The notes below the pieces were generated by a model, which saw only the letters and a list, made by a program, of their open reading frames with translations, was not told the DNA's origin and searched no databases. A stretch of DNA of 34,803 bases from a phage: assembly GCA_021149145.1 (NCBI GenBank), contig GCA_021149145.1_4322.1; one strand, written 5' to 3'. The position numbers and the translations under genes are program-made. Position 1 is the stretch's first letter; each line of letters begins with the position of its first letter. Below are positions 13,166 to 31,743 of this stretch, one piece after another.

Positions 13166-13286
13166 ATTCGTTACTCCTGATTGGTTGCCCTTCGTTAAGA
13201 TGAAACCATGGTATCATGAATATACGCGTTATCAAGTGTTATGTTGTGTTTATATCTGCATTGGTTACGCTTTTTGACCTCTCAGC

Positions 13287-13300
13287 CCAGCTATAGCTGG
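13287..13300. repeat. 14-bp perfect palindrome CCAGCTATAGCTGG
   Basis: Read directly; the AGCTATAGCT core recurs at 33072-33081 in the paralogous control region. Confidence 0.8.
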
Positions 13301-13440
13301 TGTAATTACCCTGTGTAAGATTTTACGCGGATTCGCCGGGGGTATGCATATGTATCTATATAGATAAAATTAGTAGTTTTCATAGAAAAACTATCGACCC
13401 ATCCATACGACCAATCTACACCATATACATACATATATAC

Positions 13441-13526
13441 AATAATAATAATAATATAGTAAAAGGTTGATATATATAGATATTATTATGTAACCATTGC
13501 GTAATCTAGCGTGGTAGGCGTATATG
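13441..13526. repeat. AT-rich control element, copy A (paralog of 33236-33320)
   Basis: (AAT)5 + identical 29-mer AGTAAAAGGTTGATATATATAGATATTAT (13458-13486) + GCGTA-type repeats at ~10-bp spacing (13499, 13509, 13518). Confidence 0.75.
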
Positions 13527-13764
13527 ATTCTTCGGAAGCGCACCTCATATACACACCATAACTTCGATAACGTGTATATCCAAATTGGCTCAGCAAGAAT
13601 CAAAATCAACTTGTATGGTAGTTCATCCACCATTCATTCACCCCACATCAATCATTGCAAATCCCGCAACAATCAAAAACATCATTGCATTCGATGCAAT
13701 ATTGTTATATGTGCAATAGTAAGATTAATCATTGCAATATCTGCAACAATAAATAAATCCAACT

Positions 13765-13809
13765 AATAGCACTTTTTGCTAAAGACATTTAGGTATTGCG
13801 GAGTTATGG
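13765..13809 (+). promoter_or_regulatory. Motif-type element (weak -10) upstream of the plus-strand island
   Basis: AATAGCACTTTTTGCTAAA followed 22 nt later by TTATGG, a poor hexamer. Confidence 0.3.
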
Positions 13810-13837
13810 TTCACTCATCAACAACGAGGAGAGAGAT

Positions 13838-14023
13838 ATGAAACTTAAAGACGAAGCATTTGAGCAATTAAAGCAGGAATGTGCGCTGATTGGATTGAAC
13901 AGTGACTATACTGATATGGTTTTACGCGGACGCATCAATATCGACCTTGCTAAGCAATTCCAGTCAGATGATGAATATATGTGCTGCGATGGCCTCGGCT
14001 GCGACGAATGTTTACCATGGTAA
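13838..14023 (+). CDS. Hypothetical small protein (61 aa) with C-terminal Cys cluster
   Basis: Track ORF 13796 (TTG start); better start at ATG 13838 with AGGAGAGAGAT RBS; ends ...MCCDGLGCDECLPW. Confidence 0.5.
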   Translation: MKLKDEAFEQLKQECALIGLNSDYTDMVLRGRINIDLAKQFQSDDEYMCCDGLGCDECLPW

Positions 14024-14034
14024 GGAGCCGAATA

Positions 14035-14226
14035 ATGAAAGTTAAGTGCTTAAATAATCTTAATGATGGAACCTGGGAATTCAGTAGTTGAAAGCATTAC
14101 AGTTATGATGAAATTTATGGTTACGTAGTTGGTGATAACTTCAAGCCAGTTTACTGCTACATTGAAAATGGCCTTGTTATTGCCGCTGTTAAGCGTCGAT
14201 TGATTTTTGAAATTTTAGAGGATTAA
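14035..14226 (+). pseudogene. Small ORF interrupted by an in-frame TGA at 14089-14091
   Basis: AAGGAG RBS 7 nt upstream of ATG; 18 codons, TGA, then 44 more open codons in the same frame with no internal start codon. Confidence 0.35.
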
Positions 14227-14227
14227 C

Positions 14228-14431
14228 ATGAAACTTCTTTGCACTAACATAATTGAAGACTTTAACGACGCCTTCAATAAGGGCTCTGAATACAACGCTA
14301 CCGAGTTTAAAAATGATATGTGCCTTGTTACCGGCGAACGTCCACACAAGCATCACGACACGTTCCAGGCGCTTAAATGCCTTGATTACGTAATCATCCA
14401 CGGCATCGCAACTTTTAAGGTGATTGAATAA
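14228..14431 (+). CDS. Hypothetical protein (67 aa)
   Basis: GAGGATTAAC-ATG RBS; start directly after upstream stop. Confidence 0.5.
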   Translation: MKLLCTNIIEDFNDAFNKGSEYNATEFKNDMCLVTGERPHKHHDTFQALKCLDYVIIHGIATFKVIE

Positions 14432-14595
14432 TGCTTTTACCATCTGAGATAAACTATTTCGATCTGGAAATTATTAGTGCTTACAGCGGAAAGGGTTGGC
14501 CTTGCGGGGGCTGGTTTAACGAGGACCTGCTTGAGTCTCACGAGATTATGTTGAAGGCAATTGAGAAGGCCAGAAGAAATAGCACTAATTGCTAA
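14431..14595 (+). CDS. Hypothetical small protein (54 aa)
   Basis: Start overlaps upstream stop (TAATG); C-terminus ...RRNSTNC encoded by the promoter element. Confidence 0.4.
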   Translation: MLLPSEINYFDLEIISAYSGKGWPCGGWFNEDLLESHEIMLKAIEKARRNSTNC

Positions 14596-14622
14596 AACTC
14601 ACCGCCACGGATGGCGTATATT
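14578..14622 (+). promoter_or_regulatory. Motif-type promoter (element + TATATT)
   Basis: AATAGCACTAATTGCTAAA, 22 nt, TATATT, then conserved leader CCATCGAAACGAAAGAGAG before the ATG at 14655. Confidence 0.45.
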
Positions 14623-14654
14623 TACTCCATCGAAACGAAAGAGAGCAAGAGATC

Positions 14655-14816
14655 ATGTTCGACAACTTTTATGACGCGATGGAAGAGGCGGTTTTCAGGG
14701 CGTCGATAGATGGTAAGATTTACGGTTTAGTTCAGAAGTTTGATAAGATTGTTGTGCGTATTGTGCGCAAATCAGTACCAAACAAATTCATGTGGACAAC
14801 TAAGAGATTAAAATAA
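14655..14816 (+). CDS. Hypothetical small protein (53 aa)
   Basis: Track ORF 14589..14816; ATG at 14655 sits behind the conserved leader. Confidence 0.4.
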   Translation: MFDNFYDAMEEAVFRASIDGKIYGLVQKFDKIVVRIVRKSVPNKFMWTTKRLK

Positions 14817-15205
14817 TGACTACTACGATAACCAAAAATTTCATTAGCAACGACAACAAGCTATTTAAAGCTCGCGTTAAAAAGATTCACCAGTGGGTTA
14901 ACGGTGTCGCTGAGGAAGTTGAATTTGAGCAAATCAAAAAAGACGGCAAATGGATCAACCTGGAAGAACGTGGAAAATACATTAAAACCAAAACTCTTTA
15001 CTGCACAAAGGTTAACCATAAGTCTGGCGTTAAGAAAGACTTCAAAGAAGGTAAGCGATACCAGGTCAACATGCATAGCGGACTTTGTCAGTCAACTGGA
15101 TACATTTACGATGAAGATGGCAACGCCTGGCAGCTATATCGCAGCGAAGATGTTGGCTTTTATACGTTGTGTGAAACTTACCACTTTGAGGCTCAATACA
15201 AATGA
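14816..15205 (+). CDS. Hypothetical protein (129 aa)
   Basis: Lys-rich ORF; start overlaps upstream stop. Confidence 0.5.
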   Translation: MTTTITKNFISNDNKLFKARVKKIHQWVNGVAEEVEFEQIKKDGKWINLEERGKYIKTKTLYCTKVNHKSGVKKDFKEGKRYQVNMHSGLCQSTGYIYDEDGNAWQLYRSEDVGFYTLCETYHFEAQYK

Positions 15206-15372
15206 AATTATACATTGTAAGTGGTTGCACACACTATGATGGAAGCGAAGTGATTGCCGCTTTCGATGAAGAATTCAAAGCACAGGAGTTTAAATATAAC
15301 AAAGAAATATCTTCAGAAAATCACTTTGACTACTACAAGATAGATTGCATCTTACTAAATAGCACTAATTGA
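15202..15372 (+). CDS. Hypothetical small protein (56 aa)
   Basis: Hand-translated MKLYIVSGCTHYDGSEVIAAF...; ends ...LLNSTN via the promoter element. Confidence 0.4.
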   Translation: MKLYIVSGCTHYDGSEVIAAFDEEFKAQEFKYNKEISSENHFDYYKIDCILLNSTN

Positions 15373-15402
15373 TAATGCATTATAAGCGGCTATTGATATA
15401 AT
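15358..15402 (+). promoter_or_regulatory. Motif-type promoter (element + TATAAT) with inverted repeat bracketing the -10
   Basis: AATAGCACTAATTGATAAT, 22 nt, TATAAT; AGCGGC (15385-15390) and GCCGCT (15404-15409) flank the hexamer. Confidence 0.45.
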
Positions 15403-15431
15403 GGCCGCTCAGAACAACACGGAGAGAAGTA

Positions 15432-17015
15432 ATGTTTGATTTCAACGAAGATAAACTATCTGTTGAGCAGGTTATGGCAATCGCTGCCAATGACAACCTA
15501 CCACCGCTTCGCGTGGCTATTAATGCCAATGGCTATCGACAGTCTCAATCGTTCTGGAAAGCACCTGTCGAGATTGATACAGGTAATGATAAGTATCCAG
15601 TAATCTCACTCGGTAATGATATTGATGTTGTTGGTAAGCTATCGGCTAATATCGCTCGCTCGGTTCAGTTCCCTGAGTCGTCAGCTTACATGCACTTTCT
15701 TGGTTGTGTTTCTGCTGCAATGCTTGGGCGTTTTACTGTCGAGTATCATGGAACCCAACAGCCAACATCTTTGTACGTGGTAACAAGTCAGCCGCCTTCA
15801 ACTGGTAAATCAGCCATTAACTCGCTATCAATTGCGCCGATGATTGCTGAGACTGCGCGGTTGAATGAAGTACGTAAACGTGATCGAAAAAAGATTATGG
15901 CTAAACTGTCCGCTCTGGCTAAAGAGATGAAGCAGGAAAAATCACCTTCTGAAATGGCTTCACTTTTTGAGGAGAAGGAGGATTTAGAGGAGAAGCTCGA
16001 GAAGCTATGCGATATAGTATTCCCTGTCTCCGATACTACTCCGGAAGGTCTTGCGCGAATCAACAATCGCCAGGGTAGTTTTGCGGTAATCTCTGATGAG
16101 GCTACTAGCGTCAACTCACTGTTAGGCATGACTTACGGTGATGGCTCGAAGAAAACGAACAGCGAGCTCGTGCTGAAAGCATGGGATGCAGGTAATGTGT
16201 CAATTGCCCGTGCGAACGCAGAAAATAACATGAGCTTTGTGGCTATGGGATGCATCTCCGTAATTGCTCAGGATGAAACAATCAATGCCATTATGAATGC
16301 TGGTGCGCGTGGTATTGGTGTATCTGAGCGTTTCCTTCTGGTGCGTGAAAAATCATTTCTTGGCGACCGTGTATTTGTTGATGAAAATGGTGATTCAACC
16401 TATGAGGCTATTGATGGCGGCCTGAAAGCAGACTATTTCCGTCTTGTTCATGAGATTATGAATGAAGTTGAAGTGAAACTTACTGTAAGCGCGTCATCAA
16501 TGCGTTACCTTAACCGCGCTCGTCAAGAGATGGAGCCTCATCTTGGTGATGGTGGCAAGTATTCTCACACAATGTTGCGCGGTGCTCTTGGTAAGTTTGA
16601 TAAGCAAGCAATCCGCATCGCTTCTGTTCTGCACGTAATTCGTAACTGGTTCTCACCAGCCGGATCCAGCCCTCAAAAGTCAAGAGAGATTGAACTGGAT
16701 ACAATGCAGGAAGCGATTATGATTTTCAACGAACTAAGCAAGACTTATTTATCATCCGCTAGTGCTGCTGGTCATGCTGGTGACAATGCCGAGATGAACA
16801 AGCTGGTTGATATCCTGATTAAGCAGGGCAAGAATGGTAAAGGTGTTGTTGGTGTTCGCTCGTTGTATGAGGCTGCACGCAAGGTTAAACCTTTTGAAGG
16901 TCAGGCTGGAATTATGACTCGCATTAAGGACCACTTGATTCCTATGCTTGATGAGAAAAACTACACATGCCTGATTGGTGATAAAATTTACATTAATCCA
17001 CGATTGCTGGGGTAA
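15432..17015 (+). CDS. Hypothetical P-loop ATPase (Walker A and B), 527 aa
   Basis: GGAGAGAAG RBS; Walker A-like QPPSTGKSAIN and Walker B-like FAVISDEATS about 100 aa later; largest gene of the island. Family not assignable by eye. Confidence 0.55.
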   Translation: MFDFNEDKLSVEQVMAIAANDNLPPLRVAINANGYRQSQSFWKAPVEIDTGNDKYPVISLGNDIDVVGKLSANIARSVQFPESSAYMHFLGCVSAAMLGRFTVEYHGTQQPTSLYVVTSQPPSTGKSAINSLSIAPMIAETARLNEVRKRDRKKIMAKLSALAKEMKQEKSPSEMASLFEEKEDLEEKLEKLCDIVFPVSDTTPEGLARINNRQGSFAVISDEATSVNSLLGMTYGDGSKKTNSELVLKAWDAGNVSIARANAENNMSFVAMGCISVIAQDETINAIMNAGARGIGVSERFLLVREKSFLGDRVFVDENGDSTYEAIDGGLKADYFRLVHEIMNEVEVKLTVSASSMRYLNRARQEMEPHLGDGGKYSHTMLRGALGKFDKQAIRIASVLHVIRNWFSPAGSSPQKSREIELDTMQEAIMIFNELSKTYLSSASAAGHAGDNAEMNKLVDILIKQGKNGKGVVGVRSLYEAARKVKPFEGQAGIMTRIKDHLIPMLDEKNYTCLIGDKIYINPRLLG

Positions 17016-17018
17016 TTT

Positions 17019-17360
17019 ATGTACCTGCTCGACCTGTATAATTTCTGCGAAGGATACAAGAACTTCAACCGCCAGCACCTGGCAAGATTCATCTATAAGC
17101 ACAAGGATTGCGCAAGGATGGCCAAGGCTGCCGGGGTTGATGAAAGGTATTTTGCCTCAAGTTGCTCGAAGGAGTTTATAGCGAGAATGCTTACGGCTGG
17201 GTATCTTGATGGGGTTAATGGAGTGTACTGGTGTAAGGGTTCAATTAAGCGACCATTTCAGTTTGAATTCATGAGCCTTGAAGGTAGGTCCAGTGATTAC
17301 GTCAGTGAGATGATGAACATAGCCAACATGAGTGATGACGAATTGTTTGCACAAAAATAG
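17019..17360 (+). CDS. Hypothetical protein (113 aa)
   Basis: ORF starting 4 nt after the ATPase stop; followed by terminator. Confidence 0.45.
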   Translation: MYLLDLYNFCEGYKNFNRQHLARFIYKHKDCARMAKAAGVDERYFASSCSKEFIARMLTAGYLDGVNGVYWCKGSIKRPFQFEFMSLEGRSSDYVSEMMNIANMSDDELFAQK

Positions 17361-17380
17361 CCCCATTACGGGGCTTTTTT
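17359..17380. terminator. Bidirectional rho-independent terminator
   Basis: GCCCC-ATTAC-GGGGC hairpin with T6 downstream and A-run upstream; between convergent 113-aa gene and spanin gene. Confidence 0.7.
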
Positions 17381-17752
17381 GTTTTTCCTGAATATCATTA
17401 AGAGCAGAATGATGATGACGCAAAACATGATTCCACTCCCAATCCACGGGATTGCAGACGAATCATTGTTGGTGATTTCAATCTTCTCAGCCGTGATTGT
17501 TGATGCCTTGATTGAGTTATCAGAAGTCTTTTTACCGCTTGAACTATCAAGAGTGTCAACCTTAGAGTTCTTCACTTCAGCCTTTGCGCTGGAACTTGAA
17601 TCAACCTTATTAGTTAGCCCTACTCCAACCTTGTTATTCTCCGCACCTGCTTGAGCGCTAATCTCTGGCTTACTACCAATCAACCCGGCCAGCGCAGATG
17701 TTGCCGAGCAACCAGAAAGCAGAATTACCGCAGCAATTAATACAGCCTTCAT
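17366..17752 (-). CDS. Unimolecular spanin (lipoprotein with C-terminal transmembrane domain)
   Basis: Signal peptide with lipobox LLSGC, Ser/Lys-rich periplasmic region, C-terminal TMD IPWIGSGIMFCVIIILLLMIF; last gene of lysis cassette. Confidence 0.65.
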   Translation of the reverse strand: MKAVLIAAVILLSGCSATSALAGLIGSKPEISAQAGAENNKVGVGLTNKVDSSSSAKAEVKNSKVDTLDSSSGKKTSDNSIKASTITAEKIEITNNDSSAIPWIGSGIMFCVIIILLLMIFRKNKKAP

Positions 17753-18234
17753 TTACCCACCCCACTTAAGCATAATTTAATCTCCTCGTTGCGCCTGTTA
17801 ACGAGGCCTTTAACAACTTTTAGCTTGCCATTTACTCGAGCTTTATTCCAGGAGGCGAGAGCATTACAACCCTCTTCAATCTTGCCCTGATTAATCAGCT
17901 TAACAGCTGTTGACTTCCTCATTGCAGAACCGCCAACGTTGTAGCTAAAGCTGATTAACGCAGCCCTTGTTTCTGCAGCAATTGGATATGTAACTGCATC
18001 CTGCACATACTTGCCATGAATCTGAATGTGCTTCTCCAGTAAGTTCCTGCACTCCCTTGCACTGTACTTTTTACCCCACACTACATCAGGACCAGTGATA
18101 CCTGAACAAACCGTAGGAATGCCTGAAATGTCCATGTAAGGCCTGTATTCCACACCTTCTACTAGCTCAATAATCGGCGCTGCGATGTATATTGCCACAG
18201 CCGTCGCTGCACTAATTAACAACTTCCGCTTCAT
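17749..18234 (-). CDS. SAR endolysin (lysozyme-like)
   Basis: N-terminal signal-anchor-release-like hydrophobic segment (LLISAATAVAIYIAAPI) followed by E-x8-D-x5-T-type catalytic spacing (ELVEGVEYRPYMDISGIPTVCSGIT). Confidence 0.7.
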   Translation of the reverse strand: MKRKLLISAATAVAIYIAAPIIELVEGVEYRPYMDISGIPTVCSGITGPDVVWGKKYSARECRNLLEKHIQIHGKYVQDAVTYPIAAETRAALISFSYNVGGSAMRKSTAVKLINQGKIEEGCNALASWNKARVNGKLKVVKGLVNRRNEEIKLCLSGVGK

Positions 18235-22362: not shown

Positions 22363-22407
22363 ATAATACACCAACTCACCAGTTCGTCTTTGGAAATTCG
22401 TGCTATT
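22363..22407 (-). promoter_or_regulatory. Motif-type promoter (element + TATTAT)
   Basis: Minus strand AATAGCACGAATTTCCAAA, 22 nt, TATTAT, leader ...CTCATCGAAACGAAACACAC; the element's TAG is the VRR-NUC stop codon. Confidence 0.45.
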
Positions 22408-22822
22408 TTCTTATCATCTCTGCGAATGCCGCAAGAAAACCCTCTCTTCCATAAGCCACCGCTGCGAAACCGCCTGATTCACTTACGCTTTTTAGGAATG
22501 ACTTTTGCTCATTGCTAACTGGGCTTGCTTGCGTTTTACCAGCCCTCTTTAACTCTATGGCGCCAAATGGATAACCGCCACGCAATGACTCAGGTATCAG
22601 AAATAAGCAGTCTGACACACCTTTGAGAAGCCCCTTGGCTTGGTCTTTTCTTGCTTGACCAATGCTCTTTTTATTTTCGTTAATCGTGTGCCAGTAAACA
22701 ATCTGCGGATAGTTGTATTTCACCCAATCAGAGCAGAAGATTTGTTCATCGTCTTCCTTTGGGCATGACTTCACCGGTCCGCCATAGAACTCGAGGTAAT
22801 CACCTTTGTCTGTGATTTTCAT
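22403..22822 (-). CDS. VRR-NUC domain nuclease
   Basis: 139 aa; ...DCLFLIPESLRGGYPFGAIELKRAGKTQASPVSNEQKSFL... matches the VRR-NUC pattern (D...E-x-K, GG, S..Q) as I recall it. Confidence 0.55.
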   Translation of the reverse strand: MKITDKGDYLEFYGGPVKSCPKEDDEQIFCSDWVKYNYPQIVYWHTINENKKSIGQARKDQAKGLLKGVSDCLFLIPESLRGGYPFGAIELKRAGKTQASPVSNEQKSFLKSVSESGGFAAVAYGREGFLAAFAEMIRK

Positions 22823-22823
22823 A

Positions 22824-24533
22824 TCAATCCTCCATCGTAAATGATTTGTTGGCGATAATATCTTGAGACTTCTGGTTTTTACGGTGTGTGATTCTCAATG
22901 GGGCACGGAATAGATGTGCATTTGTCATAATCATTCTAGCATTACGCAATCTGCCAATTCTGAATGCCTCATTCCTGTTATCGATGTGTGTTGAGCAGAA
23001 AGCCTTCCATTTAACAGAGCAAACGCGATGGTCTGATTCAGGGAAGAATGTTTCATAAGCTCGGAATCTGTCACCACTGTGAGCCATAACCTCATATGAA
23101 GCAATAATCCCTGACTGGTTCTTTGTTAACCCAATCTTGAAGTCATAAACTCGCAACCAGTCCCCCTTACGATACATTTTTCCTGATAACTTAGCATTCG
23201 GGTCTATGAGCATCTCACCACAGCATCTGCAATTCTTAGCTGCAATATCATTCTTCTCACCGCATCCTTTCTTGATGATAGCTTTGGTCTGTGGGTCCGC
23301 CATATCTTCACACAGTATAAACTGAAAGAAGTGCTCGCAACGCTTACCGTCAATTACATTATTACAACGCCGTGCGAACGGAGAGTTCTCATAAGAACAT
23401 GCCGGGCATACCCTAGGTTCATCACCTCCTTTCCTTGATGACTTAAACTTCTGGTCCTGAACTTCTTCTATAATTGGGTCAAAGTAAAGCTCTGCCATAT
23501 CGTCAAGCGTTCCGGCGAAATCGAGAACAACATGGTCTTCTTTTACCATCCCTGAATCCTTGTGTTTTTTCTTAAGAATTCGCATACCACGACCAAGCAA
23601 CTGAATGAGTAGAGTAATGCTACCAACCTTCCTCAGGATAATGCTTGTATCCCACGGGGGGCAGTTTACGCCAGTTGTGAGGCAACCAATCTGAAATATG
23701 AACTTATATTCTCCGTTGGCTGCCTTCTCAAGTATCTCTCTACGCTTCTTCTCACCAGTGGAGTTGGTAACTATCGCCCAAGTAACACCTTCTGGAAGTG
23801 CGGCTGCCGCCTCCTCGCAATGCCGTTTGCCAGCGCAAGTTACCAATGCAGCATTCCTTGTTTCCATAAACTTAGCAGCAAATCTCATTATCTTTTGTGT
23901 CATCGTTTGGTTTTCGTGAATCTTTGCAGCCATCGCATCCATTTCTTTCTTGCTGAAGTCCTTAACCCCATCACTTCCATCAGGAGTGAACTCACTAAGG
24001 TCGTAGCCCAAATCACCAACTTCACCGTAGACAGTAGGAACAACGAACCCCAAGTCAACAAGGTAGCTGGTTGGCACTTGCATTACAGTTTTGCGCCAGA
24101 ATCCACGGACATTTGGGTTACTAACTACAATGTGGTCGTTGTTACGGTACGGGCTACCAGTTAACCCAAAGATACGAAGTTCGCGACCGTACTTCTCCCT
24201 GCATCGACGCTTCATTTCGGTAATGATTAACGTGTATTGCGCGCGACCAGTGCCAAGAAGCCCGGTATTCACACCATCCTTAAAGACCATCTCACCATTC
24301 TTCGTGCTCATCTGCTCGAATGTTTCCTCATTCTCTTCAGCTTCTACGATATCCATATGGTCCACCATGTGGCAATTATGTGCCACGACCCCGTCAGCAA
24401 TGAAATTATGGTGCTCAGGCATCTCTATATCCCAAACAAGTTCCTTGCCAATTGGTGAGATGTCTTTAATTTTGCTTGATTTTGTATTCCACGCCATTTT
24501 CCATGTGCTTACTAATTCTCTTAAAAAACTCAT
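22824..24533 (-). CDS. Helicase, C-terminal part: 53-aa intein C-terminal segment (blocks F/G) fused to C-extein
   Basis: Starts with ATG right after an in-frame stop; ...ELVWDIEMPEHHNFIADGVVAHN|CHMVDHMD...; C-extein carries helicase motif VI-like QLLGRGMR and a C-terminal Cys cluster. Confidence 0.7.
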   Translation of the reverse strand: MSFLRELVSTWKMAWNTKSSKIKDISPIGKELVWDIEMPEHHNFIADGVVAHNCHMVDHMDIVEAEENEETFEQMSTKNGEMVFKDGVNTGLLGTGRAQYTLIITEMKRRCREKYGRELRIFGLTGSPYRNNDHIVVSNPNVRGFWRKTVMQVPTSYLVDLGFVVPTVYGEVGDLGYDLSEFTPDGSDGVKDFSKKEMDAMAAKIHENQTMTQKIMRFAAKFMETRNAALVTCAGKRHCEEAAAALPEGVTWAIVTNSTGEKKRREILEKAANGEYKFIFQIGCLTTGVNCPPWDTSIILRKVGSITLLIQLLGRGMRILKKKHKDSGMVKEDHVVLDFAGTLDDMAELYFDPIIEEVQDQKFKSSRKGGDEPRVCPACSYENSPFARRCNNVIDGKRCEHFFQFILCEDMADPQTKAIIKKGCGEKNDIAAKNCRCCGEMLIDPNAKLSGKMYRKGDWLRVYDFKIGLTKNQSGIIASYEVMAHSGDRFRAYETFFPESDHRVCSVKWKAFCSTHIDNRNEAFRIGRLRNARMIMTNAHLFRAPLRITHRKNQKSQDIIANKSFTMED

Positions 24534-25514
24534 CTTGTGCCGACCTCGTTGTTATTGATACTGAGTAAAGCTCTCTCTTTTTCTTGCCGCCAATATAGCT
24601 TCTAACCTTAACTCCGTCATTAGCAATAAATGCTATTAGCGCATCAACTACTGATTGAACTTCACTCCTGCTAAATGATTCGGTGTGGATTTCTACAACC
24701 CTCTTCCCTGAGCTTACAGTGCAATGACCATCATCACCAAAGTAAGCAGCCCAACCAACTGGATCAAGCTCTCTGCATATCTTTCCAATATCGTAACCAT
24801 CCTTAGAATTTCCGTACTTATCAGCATATGAATCCAGAACTTTCGTACATGATGTTGATACGCAAAACCAGTTGTCGCCAAATCCAGGGTTTTTCTTCTC
24901 CCTGTATCTAGGGTTTAGTTTTGCAAACCTTTCAACCTTGCTTAGTGCGTGCTCCTTATTTCCAATATTCCAAGATAGCCTATGCGTTCCTTTTTCTGTA
25001 TTTTTAATCAAGCAACCATCACCAGCCATTGCCGCAAGAATGTTTTGATGTAAAAAGTCATCAACCTCCATTGATGGGTTGACGGTTGAATTATGATGCC
25101 CCGTTCTGTAATCCAAATAGAAATCGAAAGGGTTCTTAAGAAGTACGCCTAACCCCTTGCTTGAATGCGGCATAACTTTTTCACCACAGCCACACTTGCA
25201 CGCAGGAGCTTTTTCGTAAATTTGTCCTGCGAGCCGTCTAGCGACAGATTCATCCCAATACGAAGTTTTCCCGCTCCTACCCAGCAGCCGTTCGAATAAA
25301 GTTTGTGTGTACTCGTGCATTTTATTTCCTCTCCGCTTTCTAATTTAATTGATGATACATGTCTTACACCATTAGTAAAAACTCTTTTTGGCTTATGATA
25401 GAAGTAATCACCAGTGCTTTCGTTTATGCATTTTATTTTATGATTGATAAGGTCTTCGCTATCAATCCTCATCATCCCTGAATCGGTGGTTATCATCGTG
25501 TCTCCAGTTAAGCA
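24375..25514 (-). mobile_element. Intein (1140 nt, 380 codons) in helicase motif II, with LAGLIDADG endonuclease encoded in a shifted frame
   Basis: Block A CLTGDTMITT directly after ...VIAIDE; block B KCTSTHKLY; blocks F/G VWDIEMPEHHNFIADGVVAHN then C; joined exteins read DE-CH. The two splicing domains share one frame; the endonuclease ORF is in another. Confidence 0.75.
24466..25320 (-). CDS. LAGLIDADG homing endonuclease (intein-internal or free-standing)
   Basis: 284-codon ORF with its own ATG, two LAGLIDADG-like motifs (ILAAMAGDGCL, AAYFGDDGHC); overlaps the flanking ORFs by 172 and 68 nt. Confidence 0.65.
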   Translation of the reverse strand: MHEYTQTLFERLLGRSGKTSYWDESVARRLAGQIYEKAPACKCGCGEKVMPHSSKGLGVLLKNPFDFYLDYRTGHHNSTVNPSMEVDDFLHQNILAAMAGDGCLIKNTEKGTHRLSWNIGNKEHALSKVERFAKLNPRYREKKNPGFGDNWFCVSTSCTKVLDSYADKYGNSKDGYDIGKICRELDPVGWAAYFGDDGHCTVSSGKRVVEIHTESFSRSEVQSVVDALIAFIANDGVKVRSYIGGKKKRELYSVSITTRSAQDEFFKRISKHMENGVEYKIKQN

Positions 25515-25958
25515 CTCATCTATCGCGATAACAGCAGGAGCATAGTCACCAAGCCCCTTAAACAAGCCGTTAGCAGCCGTTCCCTCACTAGCCACTATGG
25601 TTGGATAGTAAACTGATTTAACGTTAAGGCCAGCGCAATAGACGCTATTACGGATGCCGAAATTACGAAGTTCCTCTGCGTTCTGGCTGACAATCTCTGA
25701 CTGGCGAGATAGGACCATGTAAGGAAGGCCAAGCTGTTCCATTCGTTTCCCAATCATGGCGAGAATAATCGTCTTGCCAGCCGAAACCGATAGGTCTGCT
25801 ATGAATGGCGCTTCGTACTTGCCAATAGCCTTTCCGATTGCGTCAAATGTCACGCACTGGAATGGGTATGGTGTGATTTCTCCGAACTGATAATCATTTT
25901 GAATCTGCTTGATTTTATCTTGGTCAAAGTTTGCTACTAAGCGTTCTACTGGAAGCAT
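25149..25958 (-). CDS. Helicase, N-terminal part: N-extein (148 aa, Walker A SVSAGKT, Walker B IAIDE) fused to 121-aa intein N-terminal segment
   Basis: ORF ends at TAG after intein blocks A and B; same frame as the C-terminal helicase ORF. Confidence 0.7.
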   Translation of the reverse strand: MLPVERLVANFDQDKIKQIQNDYQFGEITPYPFQCVTFDAIGKAIGKYEAPFIADLSVSAGKTIILAMIGKRMEQLGLPYMVLSRQSEIVSQNAEELRNFGIRNSVYCAGLNVKSVYYPTIVASEGTAANGLFKGLGDYAPAVIAIDECLTGDTMITTDSGMMRIDSEDLINHKIKCINESTGDYFYHKPKRVFTNGVRHVSSIKLESGEEIKCTSTHKLYSNGCWVGAGKLRIGMNLSLDGSQDKFTKKLLRASVAVVKKLCRIQARG

Positions 25959-26579: not shown

Positions 26580-27059
26580 ATGAACTGGCATGATTATTTT
26601 TACTATGTAGATGGCAAATTGCATTGGAAGATTAGCACTGCAAGACGTGTTAAGGTTGGCGATGAGTGCAACTCACTATCTACATCTGGCTATTACAAAG
26701 TGTCTGTTAATGGCTTTAGGACTTATGTACATAGAGTTGTGTGGGAGATGTTTAATGGATAACTTCAAAATGGCGACTACATTGATCATATAAACCATAA
26801 CAAATTAGATAACAGAATAGAAAACCTAAGAGTAACAACAAATCAAGGTAACTCAAGAAATTGCAAGCTTAGCGTTTTATCAACAACTGGTTATTGTGGA
26901 GTGGCAAAGCTAAATCACGGAAAATTTAAGGCTCACATCACGGTTGACGGCAAGCAGCTACACCTTGGTAACTTCGATACTCCAGAACGGGCGTATAAAG
27001 TAAGAATTGAAGCAGAGAGAAAATACAACTTTCACGAAAATAACGGGTTAAGCAAATGA
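26580..27059 (+). pseudogene. HNH-AP2-type homing endonuclease interrupted by an in-frame TAA (26760-26762)
   Basis: GGAGAGAAG RBS; MNWHDYFYYVDGKLHWK...HRVVWEMFNG, TAA, then same frame LQNGDYIDHINHNKLDNRIENLRVTTNQGNSRN (HNH) and an AP2-like tail; stop overlaps primase ATG (ATGA). Confidence 0.6.
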
Positions 27060-27979
27060 ATTACGATAAGAATGAAGTTATACCTAAGATGGCCGGATTG
27101 TGGAAATCATTTTATGTAAAGGAACTTGGTTGGAATGATAGACACATAAGTAAGAAGCACGGACCATGCCCATGCTGCTTTGGCACTGACAGATTCAGAT
27201 TTACCGACGAAATAGGCAGTGAAAAAGGAAATGGCGCGGCAGTTTGTTCGAAATGCGGAAGTGACTCCGGTATAGGATGGGTCATGAAGTGCACCGGATT
27301 GTCCTTCGCCGATTCAGTAAATTTGCTTGGTGACTGGCTGAACTTAACACCAATTGAGGTTATAGTTAAAGCAAACAAGCAAGCCTCGAGAACTAAGCGT
27401 TACAAAATGGGCGCTCAAGTCGACCATGAGAAAGTCCTGGAGGTTATGGAGAGAACTAAGAGAGTGGAATCGAGTCCACTCACGACATACGAGGGTATTT
27501 ATGACGCGTTTGGTTTTGATGTTGGTATAGCTAAAAATGGTTCAATGATTCACGCAATCCCTTGTTCGATGGTTTATGAAGATGGGCTTAGTGATGAGTT
27601 CTGTAACGTAATGTTTATCGATGAGGATTCAAATGTTAAGTTCCTTGCTGGTGATTACACTCGTGATTCTGTTTCCGTTATTGGTTCTAAGCAGGATGAT
27701 AGTTATACTTATGTTGTTGACAATTATATTGATGGCATGCGTGTTCACCTTGCTACTGGTGGGCGCGAAGTGTTTGTTGCTTTCTCCTGTTACAATATGG
27801 AGATGGTTATCCACCGCGACAAGTCAAGGAAGTTCAGAATTGCTTGCCGTGATTCTGATAGCGATATACTCGCCGTTGCTGACGATAGGGGTGTTGATGT
27901 TGTAGTTCCTAATGACGGTGAGTCATTTAAAACAGGCATACGAAAGAAAGTGTACAAAGCAAACGACTTGCTAAACTAG
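27056..27979 (+). CDS. DNA primase (zinc ribbon plus TOPRIM-like region)
   Basis: 307 aa; N-terminal Cys4 ribbon GPCPCCFGTDRFRF...AVCSKCG typical of primase zinc-binding domains; acidic DxD-like clusters later (CRDSDSDILAVADDRG). Confidence 0.55.
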   Translation: MNYDKNEVIPKMAGLWKSFYVKELGWNDRHISKKHGPCPCCFGTDRFRFTDEIGSEKGNGAAVCSKCGSDSGIGWVMKCTGLSFADSVNLLGDWLNLTPIEVIVKANKQASRTKRYKMGAQVDHEKVLEVMERTKRVESSPLTTYEGIYDAFGFDVGIAKNGSMIHAIPCSMVYEDGLSDEFCNVMFIDEDSNVKFLAGDYTRDSVSVIGSKQDDSYTYVVDNYIDGMRVHLATGGREVFVAFSCYNMEMVIHRDKSRKFRIACRDSDSDILAVADDRGVDVVVPNDGESFKTGIRKKVYKANDLLN

Positions 27980-31698: not shown

Positions 31699-31743
31699 AT
31701 GATACCCCACCTGTTAATTTTGTCTTTAGCAATTAGTGCTATT
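31699..31743 (-). promoter_or_regulatory. Motif-type promoter (element + TATCAT)
   Basis: Minus strand AATAGCACTAATTGCTAAA, 22 nt, TATCAT, leader ...CCCATCGAAACGAAAGAGAG; the element's TAG is the exonuclease stop codon. Confidence 0.45.

What the first reader, a model, noticed from the sequence alone, without database searches (positions are those of the whole stretch)
13838..17360. Plus-strand island with a 527-aa Walker A/B ATPase of unrecognised family
A block of nine rightward genes sits between the AT-rich control region and a strong bidirectional terminator, opposite in orientation to both flanks. Most genes are 50-130 aa with coupled stop/start overlaps, typical of early host-takeover or accessory cargo. 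The largest has Walker A-like PSTGKS and Walker B-like VISDE motifs but no pattern I can assign to a known helicase, primase or terminase family. Its own promoter (15358-15402) has an inverted repeat AGCGGC...GCCGCT bracketing the -10, suggesting separate regulation. This is the best place in the window to look for an uncharacterised counter-defence or replication-initiation function.
Basis: partly seen in the sequence, partly recalled or inferred. Interest (0 to 1): 0.6.

Follow-up and report, generated by a model that had tools for sequence, protein, structure and literature searches.

The report
T1-type phage MCM-like replicative helicase
The "unrecognised" 527-aa ATPase is the well-conserved DUF3987 (MCM-like) DNA helicase that all T1-like phages carry, so it is ordinary; the more interesting point is that its promoter belongs to a genome-wide set that looks like host MarA/SoxS/Rob-dependent promoters.

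Summary
The sequence features are real: nine rightward ORFs (one broken by an in-frame TGA), Walker A/B motifs, a TATAAT flanked by an inverted repeat, and a bidirectional terminator. The interpretation mostly fails.

- **Identity.** The window is a T1-like coliphage (Drexlerviridae). The 527-aa protein hits Pfam DUF3987 (E 9e-41) and PHROG 2373 "DNA helicase" (E 6e-255). It is the homologue of T1 gp09 and Rtp67.
- **Conservation.** The gene is full length in about 900 phage records and is better conserved than the portal protein.
- **Neighbours.** It always lies between a conserved 129-aa gene and a Drexlerviridae-specific 113-aa winged-helix gene, ahead of the lysis cassette. Only the small upstream genes vary.

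The promoter is not private. It is one of about 12 copies of the known T1-family 21-nt repeat. I find that this repeat fits the MarA/SoxS/Rob marbox consensus and sits at a fixed class II distance from a -10 hexamer. That reading is untested.

The parts
13166..13837 (.). AT-rich divergent intergenic region between the leftward DUF7174 gene and the rightward block. It holds ATCATTGCA repeats and TGCAAT palindromes at 13647-13756 and an (AAT)5 run at 13441-13456.
   Evidence: GC 0.385; repeats. In phage Rtp the conventional genome end lies about 470 bp upstream of the first gene of this block.
13765..13810 (+). Promoter P1: the 21-nt T1-family repeat, with a perfect marbox-like 15-mer GCACTTTTTGCTAAA at 13769-13783, and a weak -10 TATGGT at 13805-13810.
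13838..14023 (+). 61-aa Cys-rich small gene (phrog_9053). Variable: found in 12 of 83 related loci.
14035..14226 (+). 63-codon small gene interrupted by an in-frame TGA at 14089-14091. Probable pseudogene; it is intact in phage TR2.
14228..14431 (+). 67-aa small gene (phrog_4448). Variable.
14431..14595 (+). 54-aa small gene (phrog_4548). Variable. Its 3' end carries the repeat of promoter P2.
14578..14622 (+). Promoter P2: repeat with a perfect marbox-like 15-mer at 14582-14596, hairpin CGCCA-CGGA-TGGCG at 14603-14616 in the gap, and -10 TATATT at 14617-14622.
14655..14816 (+). 53-aa small gene (phrog_5407). Variable.
14816..15205 (+). 129-aa conserved gene of unknown function (phrog_2684; Rtp69 is annotated as similar to T1 gp07). 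Present in 82 of 83 related loci upstream of the helicase.
15202..15372 (+). 56-aa small gene (Pfam DUF7336, E 1.3e-7). Variable: found in 1 of 83 loci. Its 3' end carries the repeat of promoter P3.
15358..15409 (+). Promoter P3 of the helicase: repeat AATAGCACTAATTGATAAT (marbox-like 15-mer at 15362-15376, 2 mismatches), repeat arms at 15385-15390 and 15404-15409, and an extended -10 TGaTATAAT at 15394-15402.
15432..17015 (+). 527-aa DUF3987 / MCM-like AAA+ helicase (homologue of T1 gp09 and Rtp67). N-terminal helical region is aa 1-97. The AAA+ core is aa 98-445, with a long helical-hairpin insertion at aa 126-191. The C-terminal winged helix is aa 451-527.
15789..15812 (+). Walker A, QPPSTGKS (aa 120-127). 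Invariant apart from T124.
16086..16100 (+). Walker B, VISDE (aa 219-223). I220, S221 and E223 are invariant.
16323..16337 (+). SERFL (aa 298-302). E299 and R300 are invariant. It resembles the MCM SRF arginine-finger motif; this assignment is inferred.
   Evidence: the position just before strand 301-305 in the model, and my own knowledge of MCM motifs
17019..17360 (+). 113-aa winged-helix protein with a conserved acidic tail SD[DE]ELF (phrog_2794; Rtp66 is annotated as similar to T1 gp10). Always immediately downstream of the helicase. The family is restricted to T1-like phages.
17359..17375 (.). Bidirectional intrinsic terminator, AGCCCC-loop-GGGGCT with T runs on both strands, between the helicase operon and the convergent lysis cassette.

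Best explanation
The region is the conserved gp07-gp09-gp10 replication module of a T1-like (Drexlerviridae) coliphage, preceded by a variable set of small early genes.

The 527-aa protein is the family's DUF3987 helicase. It has an AAA+ ATPase of the MCM-like branch with a C-terminal winged helix.

The following mechanism is inferred, not shown:
- It assembles into a ring and uses ATP to unwind phage DNA.
- It works with the phage's T7-gp4-type zinc-ribbon primase (27056-27979) and the host DNA polymerase, since no polymerase family turned up among the window ORFs scanned and T1-like phages are reported to lack one (PMC11447400).
- The small lineage-specific winged-helix protein encoded 3 nt downstream is its likely DNA-targeting or loading partner.

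The block is read from three promoters of one family-wide type, P1, P2 and P3. Each has the 21-nt T1-family repeat placed 20-21 nt before a -10 hexamer and no -35 hexamer. Transcription ends at the bidirectional terminator at 17359-17375.
For: **Family.**
- Pfam DUF3987, E 9e-41 over aa 81-433, 141 bits against a cut-off of 27.
- PHROG 2373 "DNA helicase", E 6e-255, end to end.
- Rtp67 is annotated as a DNA helicase similar to T1 gp09.

**Fold.**
- AlphaFold model with pLDDT 88.7 and pTM 0.87.
- Foldseek returns almost only MCM subunits; the two exceptions, both weak, are ORC/Cdc6 AAA+ initiators.

**Motifs.** Walker A, Walker B and an SERF motif are invariant in 35 homologues.

**Conservation.**
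- 923 phage records carry the gene, 903 of them full length.
- Identity to other subfamilies is 65-72%, against 49-57% for the portal.
- Gene order is conserved in 81-83 of 83 loci, while the small genes occur in only 1-17 loci.

**Literature.**
- DUF3987 is described as an SF6, MCM-related family of predicted phage replicative helicases with a C-terminal wHTH (PMC4889955).
- A PriCT-DUF3987 protein unwinds DNA 5'->3' in a Walker A/B-dependent way (PMC11724360).

**Partner gene.** It has a winged-helix model with pLDDT 89.8 and is co-conserved in 835 records.

**Promoters.**
Against: - No helicase, ATPase or oligomer assay exists for any T1-family member that I could find.
- There is no sequence relative in the PDB.
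- Unlike most DUF3987 proteins described in PMC4889955, the primase is neither fused nor adjacent. It lies about 10 kb away.
- The phage has a second helicase, SF2 type, next to the primase region. A TLS paper treats that one as "the" helicase (PMC11447400).
- The N-terminal OB/zinc domain of true MCMs is absent.
- The partner role of the 113-aa protein rests only on adjacency, co-conservation and fold.
Confidence: 0.8

Rival explanations
1. The block is an accessory or host-takeover island, and the ATPase is an uncharacterised counter-defence or other non-core function.
For: - The small genes at 13838-14816 and 15202-15372 are short and coupled. They occur in only 1-17 of 83 relatives.
- One of them is already broken by a stop codon.
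- None has a known function.
Against: - The ATPase and both of its conserved neighbours are in 82-83 of 83 loci, in a fixed order.
- The ATPase is more conserved than the portal.
- It belongs to a known helicase family.
- There are no PADLOC hits.
Confidence: 0.04
2. The DUF3987 protein is a real DNA motor but not the fork helicase. It would act in origin melting and initiation, in recombination-dependent restart, or in concatemer processing. The SF2 helicase or host DnaB would drive the fork.
For: - A second, SF2 helicase with an adjacent VRR-NUC nuclease and Erf/RecE-type recombination genes is present.
- The primase is not adjacent to the DUF3987 gene.
- The C-terminal winged helix and the winged-helix partner would suit an origin-binding initiator.
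Against: - SF2 helicases with VRR-NUC neighbours are typically fork-remodelling or repair enzymes. This is my own knowledge.
- DUF3987 stands in the place of DnaB, MCM or RepA in many primase fusions (PMC5862659, PMC4889955).
- One member is a processive-type 5'->3' helicase that binds its primase (PMC11724360).
Confidence: 0.13
3. The inverted repeat around the helicase -10 is a protein operator that gives the helicase operon its own on/off control.
For: - The arms flank the -10 symmetrically.
- A palindrome at this position is kept in nearly all relatives.
- The phage encodes small HTH and winged-helix proteins.
Against: - The arm sequences differ completely between lineages while pairing is kept, for example AGCGGC/GCCGCT, GCGGTC/GACCGC, GGTGCG/CGCACC, TGGTTGGCC/GGCCAACCA and TTGTTGCCG/CGGCAACAA.
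- Mismatches are G.T wobbles in the + sense. The + strand fold is the more stable one in 20 of 24 variants.
- Both points fit a nucleic-acid hairpin better than a protein site.
- Similar GC hairpins sit in or across the same gap at about 7 of 11 repeat-type promoters in the window, so the feature is generic.
Confidence: 0.12

Closest known systems
DUF3987 (PF13148) helicases of phages and mobile elements, including AgaPH (PriCT-DUF3987) and T1 gp09 / Rtp67 / E. coli YfjI-type proteins
   Same: - Full-length Pfam match.
[quoted passage not shown]
- C-terminal winged helix, as described for the family in PMC4889955.
- The same gene sits in the same place in every T1-like phage examined.
   Different: - There is no PriCT or primase domain, and no adjacent primase gene.
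- A helical-hairpin insertion of about 65 aa follows the P-loop.
- Activity, polarity and oligomeric state are untested in this lineage.
MCM helicases (archaeal MCM, eukaryotic Mcm2-7, MCM8/9)
   Same: - A beta-hairpin lies before the sensor-1 strand.
- An SxRF motif sits where MCM has its SRF arginine finger.
- There is a C-terminal winged helix.
   Different: - Sequence identity is only 10-17%.
- No Pfam MCM hit.
- The N-terminal OB-fold/zinc domain is missing; the N-terminus is helical.
- The one assayed DUF3987 protein runs 5'->3' (PMC11724360), opposite to MCM. MCM polarity is my own knowledge.
Cch (SCCmec, DUF927) and the SaPI5 primase-helicase
   Different: They are much weaker structural matches than MCM and belong to different Pfam families.
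The 21-nt direct repeat aaATAGCACnnnTTGnTAAAA of TLS, T1 and Rtp (PMC11447400)
   Same: The helicase promoter and about 11 other sites in the window carry it, always pointing in the direction of transcription.
   Different: That paper left its role open (stoperator, enhancer site or UP element). Here it is shown to lie at a fixed 20-21 nt from a -10 hexamer.
Class II mar/sox/rob promoters of E. coli (marbox overlapping the -35, for example micF)
   Same: - The repeat fits the marbox 15-mer GCAHWWWWTGYYAAA quoted in PMC6900184. There are 5 perfect sites and 10 within one mismatch in 34.8 kb, against 1.3 expected.
- Orientation is forward.
- The box centre is about -40/-41, like the micF site at about -41 (PMC8811837).
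   Different: - No binding or activation data exist.
- The helicase's own copy has 2 mismatches.
- A GC hairpin fills or spans the box-to-(-10) gap. I do not know of this in host mar/sox/rob promoters.

Membership tests
Pfam DUF3987 (PF13148) | Score above the curated gathering threshold over most of the model | tested here: met
   140.7 bits against a cut-off of 27; model positions 3-352 of 364. All listed homologues carry PF13148.
PHROG 2373 (phage "DNA helicase"; T1 gp09 group) | End-to-end profile match and conserved genomic position | tested here: met
   E 5.8e-255 over aa 3-527. The same position between the gp07-like and gp10-like genes is seen in 82-83 of 83 loci.
AAA+ / P-loop ATPase | Conserved Walker A GK[ST] and Walker B hhhhDE | tested here: met
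   G125, K126, S127 and I220, S221, E223 are invariant in 35 sequences.
MCM-like branch of AAA+ (SF6) | Core fold closest to MCM, with a pre-sensor-1 beta-hairpin | tested here: met
   [not shown]
MCM-like branch of AAA+ (SF6) | Arginine finger and sensor 2 acting across subunits | tested here: inconclusive
   Invariant E299-R300-F301 and R383/K388 are at plausible positions. No residue-level superposition or oligomer model was made.
MCM family proper (PF00493 with the N-terminal domain) | N-terminal OB-fold/zinc-binding domain and a sequence-level MCM signature | tested here: not met
   There is no Pfam MCM hit. The N-terminal 97 residues are helical. Identity to MCMs is 10-17%.
DUF3987 replicative helicases as described in PMC4889955 | [quoted passage not shown] | tested here: met
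   [not shown]
DUF3987 replicative helicases as described in PMC4889955 | Fusion to, or immediate adjacency with, an AEP or DnaG-type primase | tested here: not met
   The only primase-like gene is at 27056-27979 (phrog_510, Zn_Ribbon_Prim), about 10 kb away.
Helicase (any) | ATP-dependent strand separation, polarity and a ring oligomer | not testable with these tools
   The only analogy is AgaPH (PMC11724360).
Class II mar/sox/rob-type promoter | Marbox consensus, forward orientation, overlapping the -35 position | tested here: met
   - Ten sites within one mismatch against 1.26 +/- 1.12 expected.
- All copies are co-oriented with local genes.
- 241 of 320 distinct contexts have a -10-like hexamer 20-21 nt downstream, against a flat control.
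- The helicase's own box has 2 mismatches.
Class II mar/sox/rob-type promoter | Binding and activation by MarA, SoxS or Rob | not testable with these tools
   No paper in the library held MarA, SoxS, Rob and "phage T1" together, and a marbox + bacteriophage search gave nothing relevant by title.

The most novel reading that the evidence does not exclude
T1-like phages may run most of their transcription, including the helicase operon, from activator-dependent promoters that copy the host marbox. On this reading the 21-nt family repeat is a class II MarA/SoxS/Rob (in Klebsiella, RamA) site that replaces the -35 hexamer. Phage gene expression would then be wired to the host's stress and efflux regulators, or to a phage-made mimic of them. 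A conserved, covarying GC hairpin placed in or across the box-to-(-10) gap would add a second, still unexplained layer. It might be an RNA 3'-end or processing element for read-through transcripts, or a DNA structure that helps melt the -10.
Probability: 0.4. Interest if true: 0.7.

Novelty: already known. Interest (0 to 1): 0.25.

Why it matters
As flagged, the finding matters little. The protein is a routinely annotated core replication helicase of a very well sampled phage family.

Three things remain useful:
- DUF3987 helicases still have no solved structure. The T1-family version is a compact, primase-free member that could serve for structural and mechanistic work, including the question of why an MCM-like motor would run 5'->3'.
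- The invariant 113-aa winged-helix partner and the 129-aa upstream gene are unstudied, family-specific candidates for origin targeting or helicase loading in phages that borrow the host polymerase.
- If the marbox reading of the family repeat holds, it would explain why sigma-70 promoters are so scarce in these genomes (PMC11447400). It would also link infection by a major group of therapeutic phage candidates to the host antibiotic-stress regulon.

Tried and rejected
- **PDB sequence searches.** Single-sequence and profile searches gave only noise, E >= 0.09.
- **NCBIfam.** No meaningful match; the only hit was a 15-bit noise match for the 129-aa protein.
- **PADLOC.** No meaningful match; the only hit was a 14-bit noise match for the 129-aa protein.
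- **Sigma-70 scan.** It missed all three island promoters because they lack a -35 at 16-18 bp. It found fewer sites than the shuffles did.
- **TTGNTA as a -35 hexamer.** I first read the TTGNTA inside the repeat this way. I rejected it because the spacing to the -10 is a rigid 22-23 bp.
- **An alternative -10.** A TAAGAT/TAGTAT box 17 bp after TAGCAC occurs only at some helicase promoters. It is absent from the other copies.
- **The repeat as a dimer site.** I considered a palindromic TAGCA-N5-TGCTA site. The asymmetric marbox consensus fits more of the conserved positions.
- **RNAalifold.** On the MAFFT alignment of helicase leaders it returned no structure, because the stems are out of register. 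Per-sequence folding with flank shuffles was used instead.
- **Literature.** A search for the repeat sequence returned only irrelevant primer hits. A search for T1 gene 1 and gene 2 genetics found nothing usable.
- **The 113-aa protein as a MarA-like factor.** This is rejected. It is a single winged helix.


Full report
**Where the window comes from.** A megablast of 13500-17800 finds 115 phage records, almost all T1-like coliphages of the family Drexlerviridae. The closest are Escherichia phages ES and AN_ECEAS (about 92% identity) and TR1-TR3 (about 87%). The rest of the window matches that identification:
- large terminase, portal and a tail fibre;
- a holin-lysozyme-spanin cassette;
- Erf and RecE-type recombination genes;
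- a zinc-ribbon primase and an SF2 helicase.

**Checking the observation.** The nine rightward ORFs, their stop/start couplings, the low-GC region to their left, the sign change of GC skew and the convergent terminator at 17359-17375 are all present. The ORFs are real genes, since each has a PHROG family or homologues in relatives. One correction applies. The second ORF (14035-14226) has an in-frame TGA at 14089-14091 where phage TR2 reads GGA, so it is probably a decaying gene. The Walker A (QPPSTGKS, aa 120-127) and Walker B (VISDE, aa 219-223) motifs are correct, and their key residues are invariant in 35 homologues. The repeat arms AGCGGC (15385-15390) and GCCGCT (15404-15409) do flank TATAAT (15397-15402), which is preceded by an extended-(-10) TG.

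**What the 527-aa protein is.**
- It is not an unrecognised family. It matches Pfam DUF3987 at 141 bits against a cut-off of 27 and PHROG 2373 "DNA helicase" end to end at E 6e-255.
- In phage Rtp the homologue is rtp67, annotated as a DNA helicase similar to T1 gp09.
- tblastn finds it in 923 phage records, 903 of them full length.
- The PDB holds no sequence relative, so I modelled it from a 35-sequence alignment. The model has pLDDT 88.7 and pTM 0.87.
- The last 75 residues match ORC, Cdc6 and kleisin winged helices. Foldseek returns almost only MCM subunits.
- This reproduces what Kazlauskas and colleagues inferred from profiles. They describe DUF3987 as an SF6, MCM-related family of phage helicases with a C-terminal wHTH, predicted to be replicative (PMC4889955; also PMC5862659).
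- A PriCT-DUF3987 protein has since been shown to be a Walker A/B-dependent 5'->3' helicase that binds its primase (PMC11724360).

**How it differs from a true MCM and from typical DUF3987 proteins.**
- The N-terminus is helical rather than an OB/zinc domain.
- A helical hairpin of about 65 residues follows the P-loop.
- No primase is fused or adjacent.

**Core gene or island?** I fetched 80 related viral contigs and 3 GenBank regions and mapped every island protein onto them.
- The helicase is in 83 of 83 loci.
- The 113-aa gene immediately downstream is in 82.
- The 129-aa gene upstream is in 82.
- The convergent spanin and lysozyme are in 81.
- The order is always the same.
- The other six small genes occur in only 1-17 loci, all close relatives.

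The helicase is 65-72% identical between subfamilies, whereas the portal protein is only 49-57% identical. The region is therefore a conserved replication module with a variable leader of small early genes.

**The two conserved neighbours.**
- *The 129-aa protein.* It has no informative match anywhere.
- Nothing in the block gives a meaningful defence-system match.

**The promoter.** The helicase promoter has no -35 hexamer at 16-18 bp. Upstream of its -10 lies AATAGCACTAATTGATAAT. This is a copy of the 21-nt direct repeat aaATAGCACnnnTTGnTAAAA, already reported in TLS (21 copies), T1 and Rtp, whose role was left open (PMC11447400).

The window has about 12 copies, each pointing the way the local genes are transcribed. 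Three of them lie in the island, at 13765, 14578 and 15358. The block is therefore three transcription units of one common type, and the helicase has no private control element.

Two observations go beyond the TLS paper.
- *Fixed spacing.* Over the window and 83 loci there are 320 distinct contexts. In 241 of them a hexamer matching TATAAT at 5 or more of 6 positions lies exactly 20-21 nt after the conserved 15-mer (215 at 20 nt). The upstream control is flat. The repeat is thus a promoter element centred near -40/-41.
- *Marbox fit.* The 15-mer fits the MarA/SoxS/Rob marbox GCAHWWWWTGYYAAA quoted in PMC6900184. There are five perfect sites and ten within one mismatch in 34.8 kb, against 1.26 +/- 1.12 in shuffles. 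The older 19-mer consensus, which I recalled from memory, gives the same enrichment.

Forward orientation and overlap of the -35 position define class II mar/sox/rob promoters (PMC6900184). The micF class II site is centred at about -41 (PMC8811837). Neither literature search for such a link turned up a relevant paper. This is a sequence-level inference only.

**The inverted repeat.** The repeat is real and conserved, but not as a sequence.
- In 24 distinct helicase leaders the -10 positions T, A and final T are invariant.
- The flanking arms change completely between lineages yet stay complementary.
- The fold energy is -8.6 to -17.8 kcal/mol (-13 or lower in 23 of 24), against about -4 +/- 2 for flank-shuffled controls.
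- Mismatches are G.T wobbles in the + sense. The + strand fold is the more stable one in 20 of 24 variants. These variants are related sequences, so the counts are not independent events.
- Comparable GC hairpins sit in or across the same gap at about 7 of 11 repeat-type promoters in the window.

This pattern favours a nucleic-acid hairpin over a protein operator. A transcript started at the helicase promoter would begin near 15409, which excludes the hairpin. As RNA, the hairpin could therefore exist only in read-through transcripts from upstream. Its function remains unexplained.

**Verdict.** The open points are the untested biochemistry of this primase-free DUF3987 lineage, its two family-specific neighbours, and the marbox-like, hairpin-bearing promoter architecture.

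Noticed in passing
window, + strand: 13765, 14578, 15358, 21155, 33375; - strand: 7374, 12539, 18826, 19903, 22407, 24637, 26043, 28044, 31743: The known T1-family 21-nt repeat fits the MarA/SoxS/Rob marbox consensus. It sits at a rigid 20-21 nt before a -10-like hexamer, which puts the box centre at about -40/-41, the class II position. Almost no sigma-70 -35 hexamers accompany it.
   Followed up: partly
window 14603-14616, 15385-15409, and - strand sites downstream of the repeats at 31743, 22407, 19903, 18826 and 7374: GC-rich hairpins lie inside or across the gap between the repeat and the -10. At the helicase promoter the stem covaries between phage lineages, with G.T wobbles only in the transcribed sense. 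Their function is unexplained.
   Followed up: partly
window, just downstream of the -10 at several repeat-type promoters, e.g. 14628-14650 (+) and after the repeats at 31743, 22407 and 18826 (-): A shared leader sequence, CATCGAAACGAAAGAGAG-like, follows the -10 in several promoters. It looks like a conserved 5' UTR and ribosome-binding region.
   Followed up: no
window 14035-14226 (+): This small gene is interrupted by an in-frame TGA at 14089-14091, where phage TR2 has GGA. The gene is absent from the closest relative, phage ES. It is likely an accessory gene in decay, or a sequencing error.
   Followed up: partly
window 22824-25958 (-): The SF2 helicase gene appears to carry an intein with a LAGLIDADG endonuclease. 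Intein_splicing hits occur at both junctions and LAGLIDADG_2 in the middle. The region is split into three overlapping ORFs in different frames (25149-25958, 24466-25320, 22824-24533). This suggests a frameshifted or degenerate intein, or sequencing errors.
   Followed up: partly
window 13647-13756: ATCATTGCA occurs three times, with several TGCAAT/ATTGCA palindromes and a 33-nt imperfect direct repeat, in the AT-rich region just upstream of the first island promoter. These are candidate operator, origin or pac-associated sites.
   Followed up: no
window 22403-22822 (-): A VRR-NUC nuclease gene lies directly downstream of the SF2 helicase. This suggests a fork-processing or recombination module separate from the DUF3987 helicase.
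   Followed up: no
GenBank records MG065638, MG065657, MG065680, MG065687 and others: Twenty-one records labelled Campylobacter phages with host C. jejuni encode a helicase about 70% identical to this one and the same 113-aa partner. They look like ordinary T1-like enterobacterial phages, so the host labels may be wrong.
   Followed up: no
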